Virus record (IMG/VR): IMGVR_UViG_3300033463_000040 | Span: 53,319-117,318 of that record | DNA length: 64,000 nt | From: a virus | Lineage: Duplodnaviria; Heunggongvirae; Uroviricota; Caudoviricetes | Reading direction: 5' to 3' (one strand) | Shown: positions 24,464-57,519 of the stretch, in pieces | Layout of the letters: every line of letters begins with the position of its first letter | Position numbering within the stretch: the first letter of the stretch is position 1 | Notes under the pieces: model-generated | What the model was told of the DNA's origin: nothing | What the model saw: only the letters and a program-made list of their open reading frames with translations | Databases searched by the model: none | Made by a program: the position numbers and the translations under genes

Positions 24464-24539
24464 TGGTGGAGCTGATCAGACTCGAACTGACGACTCTCTG
24501 CTTGCAAAGCAGATGCTCTACCAACTGAGCTACAACCCC
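24464..24539 (-). tRNA. tRNA-Ala (UGC)
   Basis: Anticodon arm TCTGC-TTTGCAA-GCAGA; D-arm GCTCAGTTGGTAGAGC. Confidence 0.75.
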
Positions 24540-24605
24540 ATATAAATTTTTTGGTGGCCCTGACCGGAATCGAACCGGTACGACATTTAACTGTCAACAG
24601 ATTTT

Positions 24606-25309
24606 CTTACTACTATAGCTTTCACTACCAATTTCTTGTTTGTAGTCTGGACTTTGTCTTCACCATATATTTCTACTTAGGTGGCTGCCGTTAAGTCTCT
24701 ACACGTTCCTATTTCTAGGCTTCGCTCGGCGTTAGGATTATAAAACCTTTCACCGAATTTGACAGCATTCAATCGAGAAGTTTCCTACCTTGTTGCTCAT
24801 TAGTCTTACCTCTTCTAAACCTATAAGATTTAGTTAAGGAATGGCAATTTGGACACAATATAATTAAATTAGATAATAAATGATTTTCAGGATTTCCATC
24901 GATATGATGTAATTCGCATGGAGTATATTTGCTATTTTTTAATTTTTCACACCACCCACATTTCTCACACTTATCTTCTTTATATCCTTCATCTATTAAT
25001 CTTGTTTTTAATTTATATGTTTGATACTGAGGATACTTTCCTGCTAAAATTTCTTCTATAGATATTTTAGCAGATCTTTTTTTCTCAGTACCTTTTCCGC
25101 CTTGATTAGGTTTATAAATACCCAATCTTTTAGCATGCCTAATAAATGTTGTATATGCCATACCACATCTTTTAGCAGCTAAAGCCATTGTTTGAGACTT
25201 AATGATAATATCAATCATTTCTTGATCTGTAATTCTATTTTTCATAGGATTAACTCCTTATGATATAGAACTACTTTTTCAATAAATTATGATACACTCA
25301 TTTTCGTCT
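24606..25309 (-). mobile_element. group I intron in the tRNA-Leu anticodon loop, carrying an HNH homing endonuclease ORF
   Basis: Exon ends in U before the 5' splice site; the intron ends in G; P7-like CAGACTAC...GTAGT elements near the 3' end; HNH ORF inside. Confidence 0.6.
24769..25245 (-). CDS. HNH homing endonuclease (intron-encoded) with N-terminal HTH
   Basis: CELHHIDGNPENHLLSNLIILCPNCHS HNH motif; lies wholly within the intron. Confidence 0.65.
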   Translation of the reverse strand: MKNRITDQEMIDIIIKSQTMALAAKRCGMAYTTFIRHAKRLGIYKPNQGGKGTEKKRSAKISIEEILAGKYPQYQTYKLKTRLIDEGYKEDKCEKCGWCEKLKNSKYTPCELHHIDGNPENHLLSNLIILCPNCHSLTKSYRFRRGKTNEQQGRKLLD

Positions 25310-25360
25310 AAGTCTGCAGCGTCTACCAATTCCGCCACAGGGCCAAAATTAATAAAGTAA

Positions 25361-25450
25361 TGGCGGAGTGGGAGGGATTTGAACCCCCGGAAACATTACT
25401 GCTTCGGCTGATTAGTAATCAGCTGTATTAAACCGCTCTACCACCACTCC
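25361..25450 (-). tRNA. class II tRNA, Ser-like, with an atypical anticodon read as ACU
   Basis: Acceptor GGAGTGG/CCACTCC; long variable arm; anticodon arm GCTGA-TTACTAA-TCAGC gives ACT at 34-36. Confidence 0.55.
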
Positions 25451-25459
25451 TTTAAAAAA

Positions 25460-25549
25460 TGGCGGACAGAGAGGGATTCGAACCCCCGATACCATTGCTG
25501 GTATGCCGGTTTTCAAGACCAGTGTATTCAGCCACTCTACCATCTGTCC
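25460..25549 (-). tRNA. tRNA-Ser (UGA)
   Basis: Anticodon arm CTGGT-CTTGAAA-ACCGG; variable-arm hairpin ATACCAGCAATGGTAT; T-loop TTCGAAT. Confidence 0.75.
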
Positions 25550-25551
25550 AT

Positions 25552-25625
25552 TGGTGCACCAACCCGGTTATGCTCCGAGGTCTTAACCTTGGCAAGGTTA
25601 CATTCTACTATTAAACTACTGGTGC
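25552..25625 (-). tRNA. tRNA-Gly (GCC) with a non-canonical T-loop (AGCATAA)
   Basis: Acceptor GCACCAG/TTGGTGC; anticodon arm TAACC-TTGCCAA-GGTTA. Confidence 0.55.
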
Positions 25626-26109
25626 TTTTTATTCAAATATTTGAAAATTTCATCTTTAAAATTTTCAAACCAACCTAACTTTCTGTTACAATTACTACAT
25701 AATAATCCACGAAATTTAGAAGTTTTATGATCATGATCACGACATAATTTCGATATATCTTTTTTATTATGTTATGTGAAGCAATTTCAGTTTTACCACA
25801 AATTTCACATACCAAATGAGTTTTTTGGTATTCTTCTAATTCCCCATATGTAATATCTAAAATTTGCCCATTTTTTGCTTTTACAAATCTTTTTAATTTT
25901 TCTTCATGTAAATGATTACCTAATTTTCTATTTAAATTCAAAATTTGTTTTCTGTATTCAGGTTCTTGATATCTGGCTTTCATTTTATTTGAAATTTTCT
26001 TTTTTGTTTCTTGTGAAATATTACGACTATTTACACATTTTCTTGAACAAAATTTTCGATTTGTATCATTTTCAAATTCTATTCCACATTTTGGACAAAT
26101 TGCTTTCAT
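25616..26109 (-). CDS. Zn-ribbon + HNH endonuclease; HNH motif reachable only by a -1 shift at A-AAA-AAG (zero-frame product ends at 25675)
   Basis: Zero frame reads ...CEICGKTEIASHNIIKK then a non-conserved tail. The -1 frame from the A-AAA-AAG heptamer reads DISKLCRDHDHKTSKFRGLLCSNCNRKLGW, a canonical HNH motif. The 3' end overlaps tRNA-Gly. Confidence 0.5.
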
Positions 26110-26132
26110 TAATTTCCTTTTTTTAAATTTTT

Positions 26133-26209
26133 TGGTGCTTGTTAAGAGACTCGAACTCCTGACCCTCTGCGTGTAAAGCAGATGCTCTAGCCAACTGAGC
26201 TAAACAAGC
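26133..26209 (-). tRNA. tRNA-Val (UAC)
   Basis: Anticodon arm TCTGC-TTTACAC-GCAGA; T-loop TTCGAGT. Confidence 0.75.
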
Positions 26210-26402
26210 ATAGACCAAGAAAGCTAATAACTTTTTCATATTAACTTTCAGGTAATACTTCTAGCCAATGCTAAAAGAAAAACTTTCCTCTAATAAGTCT
26301 TACCAAAATTATTTCGTGCTTATTAGTAGGCTGTCTTTGATACGTATTCCTACCTTTATAGCCTCATACGTAACTAATAGTAGACACTTCTGTAAAACTT
26401 AA

Positions 26403-26476
26403 TGGTTGGAGCACCTGGATTCGGACCAAGATAACGGGAACCAAAATCCCGGGTTCTACCATTAAACTATGCTCCA
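26403..26476 (-). tRNA. tRNA-Gln (UUG)
   Basis: Anticodon arm CGGGA-TTTTGGT-TCCCG; T-loop TCCGAAT. Confidence 0.7.
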
Positions 26477-26482
26477 ATAAAT

Positions 26483-26557
26483 TGGCAGCCCCACTCGGAT
26501 TTGAACCGGGATTCTCGCCTTGAAAGGGCGGTGTCCTAACCATTAGACGATGGGGCC
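26483..26557 (-). tRNA. tRNA-Glu (UUC)
   Basis: GGCCCCATCGTCTAATGGTTAGGAC...CCGCC-CTTTCAA-GGCGA, very close to the E. coli tRNA-Glu pattern. Confidence 0.7.
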
Positions 26558-26564
26558 AGAAACA

Positions 26565-26639
26565 TGGCTGGCGTGGTCCGATTCGAACGGACAACCATTC
26601 GGTTAACAGCCGAAAGCTCTGCCGTTGAGCTACACGCCA
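26565..26639 (-). tRNA. tRNA-Asn (GUU)
   Basis: Anticodon arm TTCGG-CTGTTAA-CCGAA; T-arm GTCCGTTCGAATCGGAC. Confidence 0.75.
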
Positions 26640-27831
26640 ATATAAAGGTGTTTTGATTCTCTACGATGGCTCAATAACACCAAAAGCCTCGGCAAATCCT
26701 CGACCATTGGTCAAGGCCCAGAAATATGTTCAGTCGAGCATCACTAGCTGAACTCCGTGATGTTCGGATTGAGGTGTCCAATCAGTAGTTGAAACTTTAC
26801 CCCAAAAACCAAAAATGCATTTCTACATTCTGGCAATCCATACTAGCTAATGCTAATAGGAATTTAAGCGGAGAATGATAGTAAGACCCGGAATTTAGAT
26901 CACTGACTTGTAAGAGTACAAGCTAACCGGCCTATCAAACCCGAAATTAATATACATAAAAGTATATCAACAGTAAACATTTATACTTCCAATTCCACCT
27001 TACTAGAGCTCTTTCAGGTTTCCTATTCTTTCCCTTGGACTTGTTACAGCAAGCTGTATTGTCGAACACCAATACATTCGAGACTATTTCACTCGAAATA
27101 AGTATAAACATTAAAAATGCAGAATTTAGTTGGCCTAACCTAACGAAGTCACACCTGCATTAAACTCCGACTACTATCGACTAGTGACGATCGTTCTGAC
27201 CAGGAACGTTAGTCAAGGGATTTAGCCTACTACTGCAGTCTCAGCTAAATTGAGGGTGGGATTATTGGTTAGGCACTTCCCCTAACACTTCAGCCCAGTG
27301 TGCTGTGTGCTATACTTCACACTACTTACCCAAACTTTATGGCGACTCGTATGGGTACCGCCCCCATCTGATTTCCTGAGTGACAGTCAGGTGAACACAC
27401 TATGCATTCCCACGAGCCAAATATTTTTCTATACTTTTTGAGCTAAGCCCGCAAATAAATTTGGTAGATTCTGTTGCCAAGCTCTACCCAGCTCCGATTG
27501 ATAACTTTATTTAAATCAAGCAGCTATTGCACTTAATTTATAGTTATCGTTCGCTGGTTCATTTATCATGCCAGTCAATTAAATAATCTTTTGTAATTAT
27601 TTAGTAAACTGTATCGGTGATATTGCAATGTCCCTTATGCTTCTTTTGGTCTAGTACCAAATGTTCTATTCGTAATAAACTAAATATCACCAAACTTTAT
27701 GGTGGAGATATCGGTATTGAAACCGAGTCCAGTAAAAATATACTGTCGAATTTAACTCATCCCCTTGTATCTTTACCTAGAGCTGATAACATTACTAAGA
27801 TGTCATAGCAGTTGTTCTAGGATTTCATTTG
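26640..27831. ncRNA. 1.2-kb ORF-free, GC-enriched, hairpin-dense segment between tRNA-Asn and tRNA-Tyr: candidate large structured RNA
   Basis: No ORF above the noise. GC visibly above the ~28% background. Many GC-containing local stems (catcac..gtgatg, gttagg..cctaac, agtgtg..cacact, cctga..tcagg). CCAAACTTTATGG motif twice (27331, 27679). A tRNA-like 3' end at 27690-27725. Confidence 0.3.
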
Positions 27832-28098
27832 TGGTGGGAGAGGTTGGAGTCGAACCAACTCAGTCATAAGACAACAGATTTCATTGCTACATTGTTTTCA
27901 CATTGTAGTCTGGACTTTCTCTTCATCTCAATAAGATGTCTGGTGTAAAGTCTCTACACTCGGATTTCTCCTAGCTCGGGATTAGCATATCATTTAACTT
28001 AGCTTTCCCCGACTTAGCCAAATTTTCACTTATATATTACTATATAAGGCTGCAATTTTTTACAGTCTGCCCCGGCTCTCCGACTCCGGCGCTCGCCC
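27832..28098 (-). tRNA. tRNA-Tyr (GUA) interrupted by a ~180-nt intron; exons 28098..28062 and 27881..27832
   Basis: 5' exon GGGCGAG-CG-CCGGAGTCGGAGAGCCGG-G-GCAGA-CTGT joins to 3' exon AAA-TCTGT-TGTCTTATGACTGA-GTTGGTTCGACTCCAAC-CTCTCCC-A-CCA. The spliced anticodon arm GCAGACTGTAAATCTGT matches the E. coli tRNA-Tyr pattern. The intron core is homologous to the tRNA-Leu intron. Confidence 0.55.
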
Positions 28099-36792: not shown

Positions 36793-38994
36793 TTAATCCT
36801 TATTATAATAACTGTTTTTAATATCAATAATGGATAATGTATCTAAATCAATACCACCATTTTTAATACCTGTCATAAAACTAAACAAATCATTCATCAA
36901 ATTTGTTTGTTCAGACTTTACATTTTTAGCGGCAAAATATTTATCATTATCACCTTTATTAATATATTCTTTCATTCTACGCATGTCTTTCCAGAATTTA
37001 TAGAAAGGTGTTTTATATTTAATCATAAAATTATTCTGATCTACAAATACAAAACCTTCTATTTCTTCATGAAAATCTTTATCAAATGCTTCAATAAAAG
37101 ATTTTAATTCAGCAAAGGTATTAAATACTTTACACATTTCTTTTGGTTTACATCCTATTTGTTTAGCTAATTCCCATACATCATCATAAGATTTAAATGT
37201 ATCTGTAAAATCATTCTGTACTATATCTAATAATACAACTTTTTCATTGACATATTCAATAATATGCGGATCATTATGTGGATCTACACATTCAAATATA
37301 GCGGAACAATTATTAGCTTTTAAATATTCTTTTAATTTATCAATATTTGTATGTGTTTTTAATATACGCTCAAAGTTTTCTTTATATTCGCCTTGATTTG
37401 TAGATTTAGATGCAATAAATAATTGATCATTATATACAGATACAATACCTAAAAAGCCATTTTCTTTCAAATAAGCAGTTACTGGAAATACTAATGTCTT
37501 TTCTAAATTTCTCCATTGTGTAGATGGATGCTGTTCTGCTTCAAAAAATTTAGGATAAGATCTAGCAACTACTTGATTTGTCTTAGTATCAACAAATAAG
37601 CCTCTCGCTGTAGTAGTTAATTTATTCCATTTTTGGCTATAAAAAGCTTCTCTACTAAAGTTATAAGAAACTATACCATCACCCAAATCTTTTTTATGTA
37701 TTAAACTACTACTATCCAATTGTTGAATAATTGGATTATCATGTCTACTAGAAGGAATTTGTATATCTTTGTTATAAATTGTATTTGGTATTTCTATTGG
37801 TAATATATTCATTTTGTCTGTATAAGATAATTCAACTATTCTTAAATTACCACCAAATTCAACTTTACCTTCTAAGTTAATACTATAGCCGTCTGCACTT
37901 ATAATTGGATTATTAGTTACATTACGATGACCATGTACATTATAGCATTTGTAGTTTAATACTTGCATAGTCATTTTTTCATTAATACTACCAAAAGCTT
38001 TTTCTACTTCATCTAAATCATCATAATCACCTACTCCTTTAATACATTGTATTGCAGAAGTACGATAATCTAAAGGAAAGCTTAATCCACCATGAGTAAT
38101 AGAAAATCTATGATAAATACCCTGACAGTAAAAACTAACATTTACTGCTACTTTTAATCTTCTAGTAAACTTACTTAATTGATCTTTTAATTCACCAAAC
38201 TGTACTAAAGAATCTTTGAAATCTGGTGTCATTTTAGCAGCTTCACCATCTCTTACATAATTCTTAGCCCATATTTCATGATTACCTTGTAAAAATACAA
38301 AGTTTTCTTTTTCACAGTGGTCTAAACAAAACTGTAATACTTCTTTAGCTTGAATACCACGATCAAAATAATCACCAATAAAGATGTATAATTTTTGATC
38401 AGATTCTGGAGATGCTTCAAAGTATTTTCTTATTGGATCATAACAATTATGTATATCACCAAATATTACTACTTCTTTCCATTTATTACCATCTATTTTA
38501 TATACAAAATTATCTAAATTAGGAAATTCATTATAATCATAAATTTCATATTTATTTTGTAATGGTACTTTTATTTGATTATACATACGATCTAATACTT
38601 CATTTGGTACTTGTTTATAACTTTCCCGCATTAAATTTCTTTCTTTACAAGTATCTAAATCAACAGAAGAAAAATCTACAATAATCATACGATAATTATA
38701 TTCTTTACACAATTTTTTATAATCTTTTAAATAAGATTCTTTGGTATGTGTAGCATCTAATATAGTAAAATCACCATTCTTCATACGATCTTCTAATCTT
38801 TCTTTAAAGAAAGCCCAAACATGTTTATCATGTTTATTAGAAACAATATATTTACCTTTTATAGTTTGTTCTGGAGAAGAGTATAATAAACGAATAGCAT
38901 CGGTACTTAAAACGTATGCTTCTAAATCTCTTTCTTTAATCCAAGTAGATTTACCAGAACCTGGAATACCTCTTAAAACTAACAAGATCTTCAT
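36793..38994 (-). CDS. trifunctional RNA repair enzyme, Pnkp-like (kinase, metallophosphatase, ligase-like)
   Basis: N-terminal P-loop GIPGSGKST; central calcineurin-like motifs GDIHNCYD, GDYFDRG, GNHE; C-terminal third with ligase-like KENG. Confidence 0.55.
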   Translation of the reverse strand: MKILLVLRGIPGSGKSTWIKERDLEAYVLSTDAIRLLYSSPEQTIKGKYIVSNKHDKHVWAFFKERLEDRMKNGDFTILDATHTKESYLKDYKKLCKEYNYRMIIVDFSSVDLDTCKERNLMRESYKQVPNEVLDRMYNQIKVPLQNKYEIYDYNEFPNLDNFVYKIDGNKWKEVVIFGDIHNCYDPIRKYFEASPESDQKLYIFIGDYFDRGIQAKEVLQFCLDHCEKENFVFLQGNHEIWAKNYVRDGEAAKMTPDFKDSLVQFGELKDQLSKFTRRLKVAVNVSFYCQGIYHRFSITHGGLSFPLDYRTSAIQCIKGVGDYDDLDEVEKAFGSINEKMTMQVLNYKCYNVHGHRNVTNNPIISADGYSINLEGKVEFGGNLRIVELSYTDKMNILPIEIPNTIYNKDIQIPSSRHDNPIIQQLDSSSLIHKKDLGDGIVSYNFSREAFYSQKWNKLTTTARGLFVDTKTNQVVARSYPKFFEAEQHPSTQWRNLEKTLVFPVTAYLKENGFLGIVSVYNDQLFIASKSTNQGEYKENFERILKTHTNIDKLKEYLKANNCSAIFECVDPHNDPHIIEYVNEKVVLLDIVQNDFTDTFKSYDDVWELAKQIGCKPKEMCKVFNTFAELKSFIEAFDKDFHEEIEGFVFVDQNNFMIKYKTPFYKFWKDMRRMKEYINKGDNDKYFAAKNVKSEQTNLMNDLFSFMTGIKNGGIDLDTLSIIDIKNSYYNKD

Positions 38995-55977: not shown

Positions 55978-57519
55978 ATGTCAATTTTAAAAACAATCGA
56001 AAAACAAGGTTTGACAGAAGCTAAACGCAATGTCAAAATGAACCGCGGTATCGCACACGCAGCTCAATTCTTAGCAGAATCTAACTTAGGTGTTCGTTGC
56101 CCAAATTTGGTTAAAGGTTTAGAATCTGATTCCAAAGAAGCTAAATATGCAGCAGCTACATTAGTCCAAATCATGGAAAATACAGCTGACTACGTTATGA
56201 AAACAGACGGCAAAGATATCTTACATGAAGATGCTATCAACGCTACAGCTAACACAATGTTAACACCAGGCGTCTCAACTTTGACTCCACAAGTATTGGA
56301 TATCGTTAATATATTTTATCCAATGATGGTTGCAAATTATATTGCAGACATTCAAGCTATGGATCGTCAATCTGGCCAAATCTTTACAATTAAGACACGT
56401 TACAGCCAGACAGCAGCAGACGTAGCAGAAGGTGATATTGTATTCGAAAAAGCAACTGACGGTACATATTCTACTGAAGGTGTTATTTCTTATACAGCAG
56501 CTACAACAGCAGCAGGTGCAGCTACATTGAATCCAACAGCAGCATTAGAAGCAAACACAACAGTAAAAGTACGTGCAGGTTCATTTATCGTTACAGTTGA
56601 TGGTAAAGAAGTTGCTCGTGATTACGGTTTAGACACATCTTTGGATGGTGTTGGTGGTACATATGTAGTTATCGGTAAGGGCGTATCTGGTACAGTTGAT
56701 GCACAAACAGGTGTTGCAACTTTGAAATTGGATACAGCTGTTATTGCTGATGGTACAGTATTGAATGCTACAGCTTCTTATGATACAGAACACGATGAAG
56801 ATTTGATTCGTAAGATTCAATTCGATATTCCTAACCAACCAATCTTGGCTAAGGAACACCCATTGATGAGTTCATATTCTGTTGCTGCAGGTTTAGTCAT
56901 GAACGCTCACTTAGCAATTGATACAGATGAATTGATCACAAATCAATTAGCTGGTACAATTCGTTGGGAACGTGACTTGGCATTAGTTAAAGCAGTATCT
57001 GATGCTGCAGTTGCTAATCCATCTTTGACTTTTGACTGCTCAGCTAACGGTACTAACTTGACATTGGCACAACGTTATAGTTCATATACAACAACTATTT
57101 CTTCTGCTCGTGGTATTATCCAAGAAACAGCAGGTCGTGGAACTGTTGACTTTATCATCTGTTCTGCTACTCAAGGTTTGCCAATTATCGAACAAATCGA
57201 AGGCTTTAAAGCTGCTCCAGAAGCTAAGAAACCAATTGGTCCATATTTAGCAGGTACATTGCGTGATGGTACAATCAACGTAATTGCAGTTCCTTATACA
57301 AAAACATTGGCAGCTGATCAAGTTGTCTTTGGTTTCAAGGGCTTCCAATTAGGTGATTCTGCAATCATCTTAGCTGAATGGGTTGCTTTGTATTTGACAC
57401 CAACATTCCAAGCTCCAAACTTACGTAACCACAAAGGTTGCTTGAGTTTCTACGACTTATTTGTAAATAAGCCAGAATACTTGGTTAAAGGTGCTATTTC
57501 TAACTTCAACGTTGCTTAA
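55978..57519 (+). CDS. putative major capsid protein (513 aa)
   Basis: Plus-strand gene; codon usage strongly skewed to GGT/GCT/ACA/GTT-type codons, unlike its neighbours; Ala/Thr/Gly/Val-rich; followed by a strong terminator. Confidence 0.45.
   Translation: MSILKTIEKQGLTEAKRNVKMNRGIAHAAQFLAESNLGVRCPNLVKGLESDSKEAKYAAATLVQIMENTADYVMKTDGKDILHEDAINATANTMLTPGVSTLTPQVLDIVNIFYPMMVANYIADIQAMDRQSGQIFTIKTRYSQTAADVAEGDIVFEKATDGTYSTEGVISYTAATTAAGAATLNPTAALEANTTVKVRAGSFIVTVDGKEVARDYGLDTSLDGVGGTYVVIGKGVSGTVDAQTGVATLKLDTAVIADGTVLNATASYDTEHDEDLIRKIQFDIPNQPILAKEHPLMSSYSVAAGLVMNAHLAIDTDELITNQLAGTIRWERDLALVKAVSDAAVANPSLTFDCSANGTNLTLAQRYSSYTTTISSARGIIQETAGRGTVDFIICSATQGLPIIEQIEGFKAAPEAKKPIGPYLAGTLRDGTINVIAVPYTKTLAADQVVFGFKGFQLGDSAIILAEWVALYLTPTFQAPNLRNHKGCLSFYDLFVNKPEYLVKGAISNFNVA

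What the first reader, a model, noticed from the sequence alone, without database searches (positions are those of the whole stretch)
25616..26109. HNH endonuclease whose catalytic motif is only reachable by a -1 shift at a canonical A-AAA-AAG slippery heptamer
The zero frame encodes a Zn-ribbon N-terminus (CPKCG...CEICG) that runs into a non-conserved tail and stops at 25675. At the minus-strand sequence AUA-AUA-AAA-AAG (about 25750) a -1 slip would read KK-DISKLCRDHDHKTSKFRGLLCSNCNRKLGW. That is a textbook HNH motif (HDH...LC..CN). The reading frame then ends inside the 5' end of tRNA-Gly. A-AAA-AAG is the classic prokaryotic -1 frameshift site (as in dnaX). This is either programmed frameshifting that meters a toxic nuclease, a homopolymer sequencing error, or a recent inactivating indel.
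Basis: seen in the sequence. Interest (0 to 1): 0.6.

Follow-up and report, generated by a model that had tools for sequence, protein, structure and literature searches.

The report
Phage HNH nuclease gene broken by duplication
A small phage nuclease gene between two tRNA genes was knocked out of frame by a 5-base tandem duplication, and the apparent frameshifting signal just downstream is an ordinary Lys-Lys codon pair that the duplication pushed into that phase, so this is most likely an ordinary, recently broken selfish gene.

Summary
The minus-strand ORF 25675..26109 stops early. The -1 frame carries an Endonuclease VII/HNH motif. A_AAA_AAG (25765..25759) is in the slippery phase. The HNH frame ends 10 nt inside tRNA-Gly(GCC).

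The interpretation does not hold. Orthologous loci in related phage contigs, with the same tRNA-Val | gene | tRNA-Gly arrangement, encode one contiguous 162-aa protein and have the identical A6G run, read as AAA-AAA-GAT. The window differs by a 5-nt tandem duplication (CATAA-CATAA, 25776..25767) just upstream of the run. Deleting one copy gives a 489-nt ORF, the same length as the ortholog. So the A run has the ancestral length, and the slippery phase follows arithmetically from a +5 insertion ahead of a Lys-Lys-Asp codon string.

There is no upstream Shine-Dalgarno-like element and no downstream structure (z 0.23). About 70 homologues are contiguous. A second lineage has the same gene split by an IS1595-type insertion, so the gene looks dispensable.

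Best reading: a free-standing, homing-type Endonuclease VII/HNH gene in a large phage's tRNA array, recently inactivated. Sub-percent accidental rescue by slippage cannot be excluded, but nothing suggests it is selected. Interest is low.

The parts
25675..26109 (-). Zero-frame ORF as it now stands (144 aa). It holds an N-terminal Zn-ribbon, a helical linker and the first CxxC of the nuclease domain, followed by a 27-aa out-of-frame tail.
   Evidence: The product has no Endonuclease_7 hit. Against the orthologue, the tail shows 0 synonymous and 10 nonsynonymous differences.
25767..25777 (-). The frame-breaking lesion: a 5-nt tandem duplication (A)CATAA-CATAA. The unit phase is ambiguous, ACATA or CATAA.
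   Evidence: It is absent from both intact-frame relatives, L092-L096 and L002-L006. Deleting one copy gives a 489-nt ORF of 162 aa, the same length as orthologue P0076.
25759..25765 (-). A_AAA_AAG heptamer. Ancestrally these were in-frame AAA-AAA-G (Lys-Lys-Asp) codons. The upstream +5 insertion placed them in the slippery phase.
   Evidence: Phase statistics for AAAAAAG in ORFs of at least 120 aa are 25/7/5.
25772..25774 (-). TAA stop that closes the HNH (-1) frame on its 5' side. The frame has no ATG, GTG or TTG before the catalytic motif, so the nuclease half cannot be started independently.
   Evidence: One search lists no ORF of at least 20 aa in that frame.
25616..25771 (-). HNH-frame (-1) segment. 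It encodes DHDH (25738..25727), the second CxxC plus Asn (25699..25685) and the C-terminal helices, and ends at stop TAG 25618..25616.
   Evidence: Pfam PF02945 covers residues 92-159 of the fused protein. All invariant and near-invariant family columns are retained. dN/dS against the orthologue is 0.08 in this frame.
25798..25809 (-). First CxxC (CEIC) of the four-Cys Zn site of the beta-beta-alpha-Me domain, encoded in the zero frame. The lesion therefore splits a single domain.
   Evidence: Alignments to homologues and to Hpy99I.
25555..25625 (-). tRNA-Gly(GCC). Its first 10 nt supply the last three codons and the stop of the nuclease gene.
   Evidence: Rfam RF00005 at 49.2 bits. ARAGORN calls it in L092, L093, L002 and L003. 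A compensatory change in the anticodon stem is visible.
26133..26209 (-). tRNA-Val(TAC), the upstream boundary of the locus. It is separated from the ATG by a 23-nt spacer with an AAGGAAA ribosome-binding site.
   Evidence: The same neighbour is present in L092-L094.
25999..26005 (-). A second in-phase A_AAA_AAG in the same gene. It is not conserved (AAAAAAT in L092), and a slip here would quickly run into a stop. It shows that the motif is commonplace.

Best explanation
This is a free-standing Endonuclease VII-type HNH (beta-beta-alpha-Me) nuclease gene. It has an N-terminal Zn-ribbon, a helical linker and a C-terminal nuclease domain, about 162 aa when intact. It fills the gap between tRNA-Val and tRNA-Gly(GCC) in the tRNA array of a large, AT-rich phage.

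In the window's lineage a 5-nt tandem duplication (CATAA to CATAACATAA), probably replication slippage in a low-complexity ACATAATAAAAAAG stretch, shifted the frame. The break falls between the first CxxC and the DHDH catalytic motif. The annotated product is therefore a truncated, nuclease-dead protein, and the gene is a young pseudogene.

The A_AAA_AAG site was not evolved as a signal. It is the ancestral Lys-Lys-Asp codon string AAA-AAA-GAT. Any +2/-1-class insertion upstream automatically places it in the X_XXY_YYZ phase, with the restoring direction being -1.

Shown here: the lesion, its polarity, the intact orthologues, the absence of stimulators, and the domain identity. Inferred: loss of function, the selfish homing-type lifestyle, and the recency of the lesion.
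For: (1) The DNA alignments of the orthologous locus in two other lineages lack the 5 nt and have the identical TAATAAAAAAGAT.
(2) Removing one CATAA gives 489 nt, or 162 aa, the same length as intact orthologue P0076. The spacer from CxxC to DHDH is then 18 residues, the modal value and the value in the closest relatives.
(3) Of the 75 database homologues, about 70 carry the PF02945 domain in a single contiguous frame. P0001, the window's own product, is the only N-terminal match of this architecture whose nuclease domain is lost to a frame break.
(4) Just upstream of the heptamer, the -1 frame reads HNKKDISKLC, matching the homologues' ASHNKKDxSKLC without any insert.
(5) The 99 nt downstream fold no better than shuffles (z 0.23; 112 of 200 shuffles fold at least as well). 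The 20 nt upstream, GAAATTGCTTCACATAACAT, contain no Shine-Dalgarno-like G-rich element.
(6) The motif is common. It occurs 65 times in the window, mostly as in-frame Lys-Lys.
(7) The same gene is independently destroyed in a sister lineage by a 2.8-kb IS1595-type insertion with 46-nt terminal inverted repeats and an 8-bp target duplication. The gene is therefore dispensable.
(8) The window comes from a phage, with a major head protein, a Pnkp/RNA ligase and a 15-tRNA array. Nuclease identity is supported by Pfam, PHROGs 'endonuclease VII', an Hpy99I sequence hit, and an AF2 model (pLDDT 88.4) that matches Hpy99I and T4 endonuclease VII.
Against: The HNH-frame segment shows no further decay. 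Every invariant and near-invariant family residue is retained. This fits either a very recent lesion or continued selection on a trans-frame product.

A -1 slip product would have a 20-residue spacer. That is within the natural range of 8-22, and 12 homologues have exactly 20. The two extra residues fall in the only low-confidence loop of the model. A rescued protein would therefore probably be active.

Only one sequence lineage carries the lesion, because L001 is 100% identical to the window over 6.4 kb. Conservation of the lesion cannot be judged, and raw reads could not be inspected.
Confidence: 0.8

Rival explanations
1. Fortuitous compensatory recoding. The duplication is real, but a small fraction of expression restores the frame. 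Three routes are possible: ribosomes slipping -1 on A_AAA_AAG, RNA polymerase adding one A to the A6 run, or tRNA-His hopping from the first CAU to the duplicated CAU 5 nt downstream. The result would be low levels of an active nuclease, amounting to an accidentally throttled homing endonuclease.
For: The heptamer is in the right phase and the restoring direction is -1. The slip product has a natural spacer length, with the insert in a flexible loop. The HNH frame is undecayed. Compensatory frameshifting at 'problem' or 'savior' indels is a recognised class, for example HSV thymidine kinase (PMC5009743). The tandem duplication inherently creates matching take-off and landing CAU codons, as the sequence shows directly.
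Against: In E. coli, heptamers without stimulators reach only 2-10 times a background of about 0.055% (PMC4066793). No stimulators are present. A6 is short for transcriptional slippage (general knowledge). The lack of decay is equally explained by a recent lesion. A sister lineage tolerates complete disruption of the gene by an IS element, so there is no sign that the activity is needed.
Confidence: 0.11
2. Evolved, programmed -1 ribosomal frameshifting of the dnaX or IS3 type, which sets the ratio of a Zn-ribbon-only protein to a full nuclease.
For: There is a canonical A_AAA_AAG in phase. The catalytic motif can only be reached through the -1 frame, which has no internal start codon.
Against: Orthologues at the same locus, and about 70 homologues, are contiguous. 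The two-frame arrangement was created by a 5-nt duplication seen in only one lineage. There is no Shine-Dalgarno-like element and no downstream structure. The zero-frame tail is not conserved as protein, with 0 synonymous and 10 nonsynonymous differences. The break splits one Zn-binding domain rather than separating two modules.
Confidence: 0.03
3. Assembly or sequencing artefact. The true genome has a single CATAA and an intact gene.
For: Raw reads could not be examined. The only other contig carrying the allele (L001) is 100% identical over 6.4 kb and may derive from the same sample.
Against: A 5-nt non-homopolymer tandem duplication is not a typical short-read or assembler error. The allele appears in three contigs from two repositories, JGI and ENA, assembled separately.
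Confidence: 0.06

Closest known systems
Pfam PF02945 Endonuclease_7 proteins: phage T4 endonuclease VII (gp49, PDB 2qnf) and the beta-beta-alpha-Me restriction enzyme Hpy99I (PDB 3fc3)
   Same: It has the C..C ... DH(D/N)H.T..(F)RG.LC..CN..LG motif, the four-Cys Zn site, the catalytic His and the Asn. Pfam scores 43.1 bits. The profile hits Hpy99I at E 3.5e-5. Foldseek gives probability 0.99 for Hpy99I and 0.97 for T4 endonuclease VII.
   Different: It has an additional N-terminal Zn-ribbon and a long helical linker. Overall TM-scores are only about 0.31. The gene here is frame-broken. There is no evidence that it resolves junctions like gp49 or acts as a restriction enzyme like Hpy99I.
Free-standing homing endonuclease genes inside phage tRNA clusters, e.g. 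T4 segB (PMC2330249), and defunct phage homing endonucleases, e.g. I-TevIII (PMC2790892)
   Same: It is a small nuclease ORF wedged between tRNA genes of a large phage. A second HNH ORF lies in the same array (24769..25245). The N-terminal module is shared with other nucleases. Two of three lineages carry disrupted copies, which fits the decay phase of selfish nuclease genes.
   Different: SegB is a GIY-YIG enzyme, not Endonuclease VII/HNH. Homing, a cleavage site and an empty-site allele were not demonstrated here.
dnaX / IS3-family programmed -1 frameshifting at A_AAA_AAG
   Same: The heptamer and its phase are identical.
   Different: There is no upstream Shine-Dalgarno-like element and no downstream hairpin or pseudoknot. 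The arrangement is not conserved. It arose by a 5-nt duplication, and the zero-frame product has no recognisable role.
Compensatory ('corrective' or 'savior indel') frameshifting, e.g. herpes simplex thymidine kinase G-run mutants (reviewed in PMC5009743)
   Same: A frame-disrupting indel lies next to a slip-prone run that could restore the frame at low level.
   Different: No product data exist here. The indel is a 5-nt duplication outside the run, and there is no known selective benefit of throttling.

Membership tests
Endonuclease VII / HNH (beta-beta-alpha-Me, Pfam PF02945) | Profile match above the curated threshold | tested here: met
   The fused or repaired protein scores 43.1 bits against a cut-off of 23.6, E 3.9e-11, over residues 92-159. 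The zero-frame 144-aa product has no hit. PHROGs 'endonuclease VII' families match at up to 3e-12.
Endonuclease VII / HNH (beta-beta-alpha-Me, Pfam PF02945) | Four-Cys Zn site (CxxC ... CxxC), catalytic His in DH(D/N)H, and metal-ligand Asn | tested here: met
   C101/C104, D125-H126-D127-H128 and C138/C141/N142 are all present and fall in invariant or near-invariant alignment columns. They are split across two reading frames.
Endonuclease VII / HNH (beta-beta-alpha-Me, Pfam PF02945) | beta-beta-alpha-Me fold | tested here: met
   The AF2 model has pLDDT 88.4, with strands at 123-126 and 133-137 followed by a helix at 139-150. The top Foldseek hits are Hpy99I and T4 endonuclease VII, at probability 0.99 and 0.97 but with weak E-values of 5e-3 and 8e-2.
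Endonuclease VII / HNH (beta-beta-alpha-Me, Pfam PF02945) | Nuclease activity | not testable with these tools
   Needs biochemistry.
Programmed -1 ribosomal frameshift site | X_XXY_YYZ heptamer in the zero-frame phase, with the downstream ORF in the -1 frame | tested here: met
   A_AAA_AAG lies at 25765..25759 with its first A in codon position 3.
Programmed -1 ribosomal frameshift site | Two-frame arrangement and site conserved among orthologues | tested here: not met
   Orthologues L092-L096 and L002-L006 are in one frame, as are about 70 homologues. The same A6G is read as ordinary codons.
Programmed -1 ribosomal frameshift site | Stimulatory elements: an upstream Shine-Dalgarno-like sequence and/or a downstream hairpin or pseudoknot | tested here: not met
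   The downstream 99 nt fold at -12.7 kcal/mol against a shuffle mean of -13.3, z 0.23. The upstream 20 nt lack any GGAGG- or AGGA-like element.
Programmed -1 ribosomal frameshift site | Zero-frame termination product under selection | tested here: not met
   The zero-frame tail shows 0 synonymous and 10 nonsynonymous differences against the orthologue. The same nucleotides in the HNH frame show 8 synonymous and 2 nonsynonymous.
Free-standing homing endonuclease gene | Nuclease of a family used by homing endonucleases, as a stand-alone ORF between conserved genes | tested here: met
   It is an HNH-clan nuclease that exactly fills the tRNA-Val to tRNA-Gly interval.
Free-standing homing endonuclease gene | Sporadic presence or absence at the locus among close relatives (an empty-site allele) | tested here: inconclusive
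   All three lineages found carry the gene: one intact, one IS-disrupted and one frameshifted. No empty site was found. Scans of viral contigs with locus-specific patterns found nothing.
Free-standing homing endonuclease gene | Site-specific cleavage of the endonuclease-less allele and gene conversion | not testable with these tools
   Needs co-infection and cleavage assays.
Compensatory frameshifting at an indel | Frame-disrupting indel with a slip-prone site nearby, in the right phase and direction | tested here: met
   The duplication at 25776..25767 lies 1 nt upstream of A_AAA_AAG.
Compensatory frameshifting at an indel | Detectable functional trans-frame product | not testable with these tools
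   Needs a reporter assay or mass spectrometry. The literature baseline for bare heptamers is below 1% (PMC4066793).

The most novel reading that the evidence does not exclude
The 5-nt duplication acts as a throttle rather than a kill. Sub-percent frame restoration would keep a trickle of active Endonuclease VII-type nuclease. The routes are a -1 slip on the fortuitously phased A_AAA_AAG, insertion of one A by RNA polymerase, or a CAU-to-CAU 5-nt tRNA hop created by the duplication itself. This would be a natural 'savior indel' that attenuates a potentially self-toxic homing nuclease in a large phage.
Probability: 0.1. Interest if true: 0.4.

Novelty: new member of a known kind. Interest (0 to 1): 0.12.

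Why it matters
It matters mainly as a caution. In AT-rich phage genomes, in-frame AAA-AAA-G (Lys-Lys-x) strings are frequent: 25 in about 45 kb of long ORFs here. Any upstream +2/-1-class indel converts one into a 'canonical' A_AAA_AAG in slippery phase, with the restoring direction being -1. A broken gene can therefore look like programmed frameshifting. Comparing DNA with orthologues pinpoints the real lesion.

For annotation, the locus should be labelled a frameshifted Endonuclease VII/HNH pseudogene. Biologically, the three allelic states at one tRNA-flanked locus (intact, IS-disrupted, 5-nt duplication) give a small snapshot of decay of a likely selfish nuclease gene in a large phage lineage.

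Tried and rejected
- Megablast of 24500-27000 against GenBank phages found only a 57-nt tRNA match to Lak phages, so no close isolate is available for comparison.
- A two-allele DNA pattern found nothing in IMG/VR. In JGI metagenomes it gave five hits, all unrelated genes such as an ABC transporter.
- A tRNA-Gly-based pattern, meant to find an empty-site relative in IMG/VR, found nothing.
- The search for related loci in IMG/VR returned only more distant relatives, at most 56% identity and all in one frame, which say nothing about the lesion.
- The A7-to-A6 homopolymer error or indel was rejected because the intact orthologues have the same A6.
- Independent translation of the HNH half was rejected. 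That frame has no ATG, GTG or TTG between the TAA at 25774..25772 and the motif.
- TAG reassignment was considered because the tRNA match was to Lak phages. It would add only a few codons to either frame, the window shows long standard-code ORFs, and no suppressor tRNA is in the array. It was not pursued.
- A fuzzy search for the 5' half of a tRNA-Tyr timed out. It was replaced by a pairwise alignment, which left the matter unresolved.

Full report
**Observation**

The minus strand of 25616..26109 was read and translated in three frames.
- The zero frame is ATG 26109 to TAG 25675, 144 aa. It encodes MKAICPKCG...HLVCEICGKTEIASHNIIKK, followed by a 27-residue tail, IYRNYVVIMIIKLLNFVDYYVVIVTES.
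- AAAAAAG lies at 25765..25759 with its first A in codon position 3, so it reads A_AAA_AAG.
- The -1 frame reads HNKKDISKLCRDHDHKTSKFRGLLCSNCNRKLGWFENFKDEIFKYLNKKHQ and stops at TAG 25618..25616.
- The fused protein hits Pfam PF02945 (Endonuclease_7, HNH clan) at 43.1 bits against a cut-off of 23.6. The zero-frame product hits nothing relevant.
- ARAGORN lists no tRNA at the 3' end. Rfam finds a tRNA at 25555..25625 with 49.2 bits, and ARAGORN calls tRNA-Gly(GCC) at the homologous place in relatives. The ORF ends 10 nt inside this tRNA.

**What broke the frame**

A protein search with the fused sequence returned 75 homologues. About 70 carry the Endonuclease_7 domain in a single contiguous protein, typically 160-166 aa and covering 96-99% of the fused query. 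P0001, the window's own 144-aa product, is the only N-terminal match of this architecture whose nuclease domain is lost to a frame break. P0068 and P0070-72 also match the N-terminus, but they continue into unrelated C-terminal halves.

The homologues read ...CEICGKxExASHNKKDxSKLCRDHDH.... In the window the -1 frame already reads HNKKDISKLC before the A run. The break must therefore lie upstream of the run.

DNA of the closest relatives was fetched.
- P0076 (162 aa, intact) lies on five contigs from several samples (L092-L096).
- P0002 lies on seven contigs (L002-L006).
- Both sets are syntenic with the window: tRNA-Val, the gene, tRNA-Gly(GCC), then the tRNA-Ser genes.

The alignments show GCTTC-ACATA-ATAAAAAAGAT in both relatives and GCTTC-ACATA-ACATA-ATAAAAAAGAT in the window. 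This is a 5-nt tandem duplication (CATAACATAA, 25776..25767) placed 1 nt upstream of an unchanged A6G run. Deleting one copy yields a 489-nt ORF of 162 aa, exactly the orthologue's length. The CxxC-to-DHDH spacer is then 18 residues, the modal value and the one seen in the closest relatives. Because all outgroups are contiguous, the insertion happened in the window lineage.

**Consequences for the 'slippery site'**

In the intact gene the run is AAT-AAA-AAA-GAT (Asn-Lys-Lys-Asp). A +5 insertion, equivalent to +2, upstream necessarily puts it in the A_AAA_AAG phase and makes -1 the restoring direction. The phase follows from arithmetic and does not indicate a designed signal.

The motif is also common in this 29.5% GC window.
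- It has 65 copies.
- 37 of these lie in ORFs of at least 120 aa: 25 as in-frame AAA-AAA-G and only 5 in the slippery phase.
- A second in-phase copy sits in the same gene at 26005..25999 and is not conserved.
- A random codon in long ORFs is followed within 15 nt by an in-frame AAA-AAA-G in 0.85% of cases, and by any XXX-YYY-N in 3.5%. The coincidence is therefore modest. It is probably not independent of the mutational mechanism either, since slipped-strand duplication is favoured in low-complexity A/T-rich sequence (inference).

No stimulators are present. The 99 nt downstream fold at -12.7 kcal/mol against a shuffle mean of -13.3 (z 0.23). The 20 nt upstream (GAAATTGCTTCACATAACAT) have no Shine-Dalgarno-like element.

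In E. coli, heptamers without stimulators give only 2-10 times a background of about 0.055% (PMC4066793).

The HNH frame is closed by TAA at 25774..25772 and has no start codon before the motif. The nuclease half therefore cannot be made separately.

**Selection signals**

Against the intact orthologue, the segment downstream of the lesion has 10 synonymous and 6 nonsynonymous differences in the HNH frame (dN/dS 0.08). In the frame actually read from the ATG, the tail has 0 synonymous and 10 nonsynonymous differences.

The sequence therefore evolved as an HNH gene for essentially all of the divergence, and the zero-frame tail is not a conserved peptide. All invariant and near-invariant family residues are still present. 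This fits a recent lesion, but it cannot by itself exclude continued selection through rare frame restoration.

**What the gene is**

- The profile of the family hits the beta-beta-alpha-Me restriction enzyme Hpy99I (E 3.5e-5), aligned across both CxxC pairs and DHNH.
- PHROGs calls it endonuclease VII.
- An AlphaFold model has pLDDT 88.4. It shows an N-terminal Zn-ribbon, long helices and a beta-beta-alpha unit. Its only weak block is residues 111-120, the linker where the lesion sits.
- Foldseek ranks Hpy99I and T4 endonuclease VII first, at probability 0.99 and 0.97, with weak E-values and TM about 0.31 because only the C-terminal domain matches.
- The lesion separates the first CxxC (25809..25798) from DHDH (25738..25727) and the second CxxC-N (25699..25685). 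It therefore splits a single Zn-binding catalytic domain.

**Context**

The window belongs to a large phage. It has a major head protein at 55978..57519, a Pnkp-type kinase/phosphatase/RNA ligase at 36793..38994, and a 15-tRNA array. Contigs carrying this allele reach 231 kb.

A second HNH ORF sits in the same array at 24769..25245. The N-terminal Zn-ribbon module occurs at up to 86% identity on 240-284-aa proteins with unrelated C-terminal halves.

In the L002-L006 lineage the orthologous gene is split after codon 45 or so by a 2.8-kb element. The element encodes a DDE_Tnp_IS1595 transposase and is bounded by 46-nt inverted repeats and an 8-bp AAAATTAA direct repeat. One locus therefore shows three states: intact, IS-disrupted and frameshifted.

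This pattern, together with the position between tRNA genes, resembles free-standing homing endonuclease genes in phage tRNA clusters such as T4 segB (PMC2330249), and the decay of such genes as in the defunct I-TevIII (PMC2790892). Homing itself was not tested, and no empty-site allele was found.

**Verdict**

- Best explanation (about 0.8): a recently frameshifted pseudogene of an Endonuclease VII/HNH free-standing nuclease. The slippery heptamer is a by-product.
- Accidental low-level compensatory recoding (about 0.1): this could occur by a -1 slip, by a +1A transcriptional slip, or by a CAU-to-CAU 5-nt hop that the duplication itself makes possible. The slip product would have a 20-residue spacer, which 12 natural homologues also have, so it would probably be active. 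Compensatory frameshifting at indels is a known class (PMC5009743). The expected efficiency is below 1%, and a sister lineage tolerates complete loss of the gene.
- Assembly artefact (about 0.06): the second contig carrying the allele is 100% identical over 6.4 kb and may not be independent. Raw reads were not available.

The finding is real but ordinary, and interest is low.

Noticed in passing
window 27700..27763 (-) and 27460..27612 (-); L092 888-953 and 1073-1265: There may be a phage-encoded, possibly two-piece or permuted, tmRNA. A 64-nt piece, GGGGATGAG...GGACTCGGTTTCAATACCGATATCTCCACCA, looks like a tmRNA tRNA-like domain. Its orthologue in L092 reaches the Rfam tmRNA gathering score (47.5 against 47). 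A neighbouring stretch hits alpha_tmRNA below threshold (36-38 bits). Both are about 90% conserved between the lineages, and ARAGORN reports no tmRNA.
   Followed up: partly
window 25616..25625 (-); same in L092, L093, L002, L003: The last three codons and the TAG stop of the nuclease gene lie inside tRNA-Gly(GCC), with the stop at tRNA nt 8-10. The overlap is conserved in all alleles. If the array is co-transcribed, RNase P cleavage at the tRNA 5' end would leave the nuclease mRNA without a stop codon. This could be a route to down-regulation by trans-translation (speculation).
   Followed up: no
L002 221..3041 (also L003-L006): An IS1595-family element of about 2.8 kb is inserted in the orthologous nuclease gene of a sister phage lineage. 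It has a 305-aa DDE_Tnp_IS1595 transposase, three further ORFs, 46-nt terminal inverted repeats at 85% complementarity, and an 8-bp AAAATTAA flanking repeat. An IS element carrying passenger genes inside a large phage genome is notable.
   Followed up: partly
window 25361..25450 (-); L092 2842-2931; L002 3552-3636: There is a tRNA-Ser with anticodon ACT (A at position 34), next to tRNA-Ser(TGA). It is conserved in three lineages. Unmodified A34 is unusual for a Ser tRNA and suggests inosine or another modification.
   Followed up: no
window 27830..27881 (-): The sequence aligns to the 3' half (T arm and acceptor, ending ...CTCCCACCA) of the tRNA-Tyr(GTA) called in L092 at 657-743. The 5' half is not recognisable in the window, and neither ARAGORN nor Rfam calls a tRNA here. 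It could be a disrupted, split or intron-containing tRNA-Tyr.
   Followed up: partly
window 24769..25245 (-): A second, intact HNH endonuclease ORF (158 aa, motif CELHHIDGNPENH...CPNCH; phrog_10822 at 3.6e-20) lies in the same tRNA array. Relatives carry different ORFs at the corresponding position: 208 aa in L092 and 131 aa in L002. The array may be a hotspot for mobile nuclease genes.
   Followed up: partly
proteins P0068, P0070, P0071, P0072: The N-terminal Zn-ribbon MKxICPKCGIEFENxTNRKFCSRKCANSH is shared almost verbatim (up to 86% identity) with 240-284-aa proteins whose C-terminal halves are unrelated to Endonuclease VII. This suggests shuffling of a DNA-binding module among phage nucleases.
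   Followed up: no
window 36793..38994 (-): A 733-aa kinase/phosphatase/RNA-ligase fusion (phrog_8238 at 5.9e-175, Pnkp-like) lies near the tRNA array. It is consistent with a phage tRNA-repair system.
   Followed up: no
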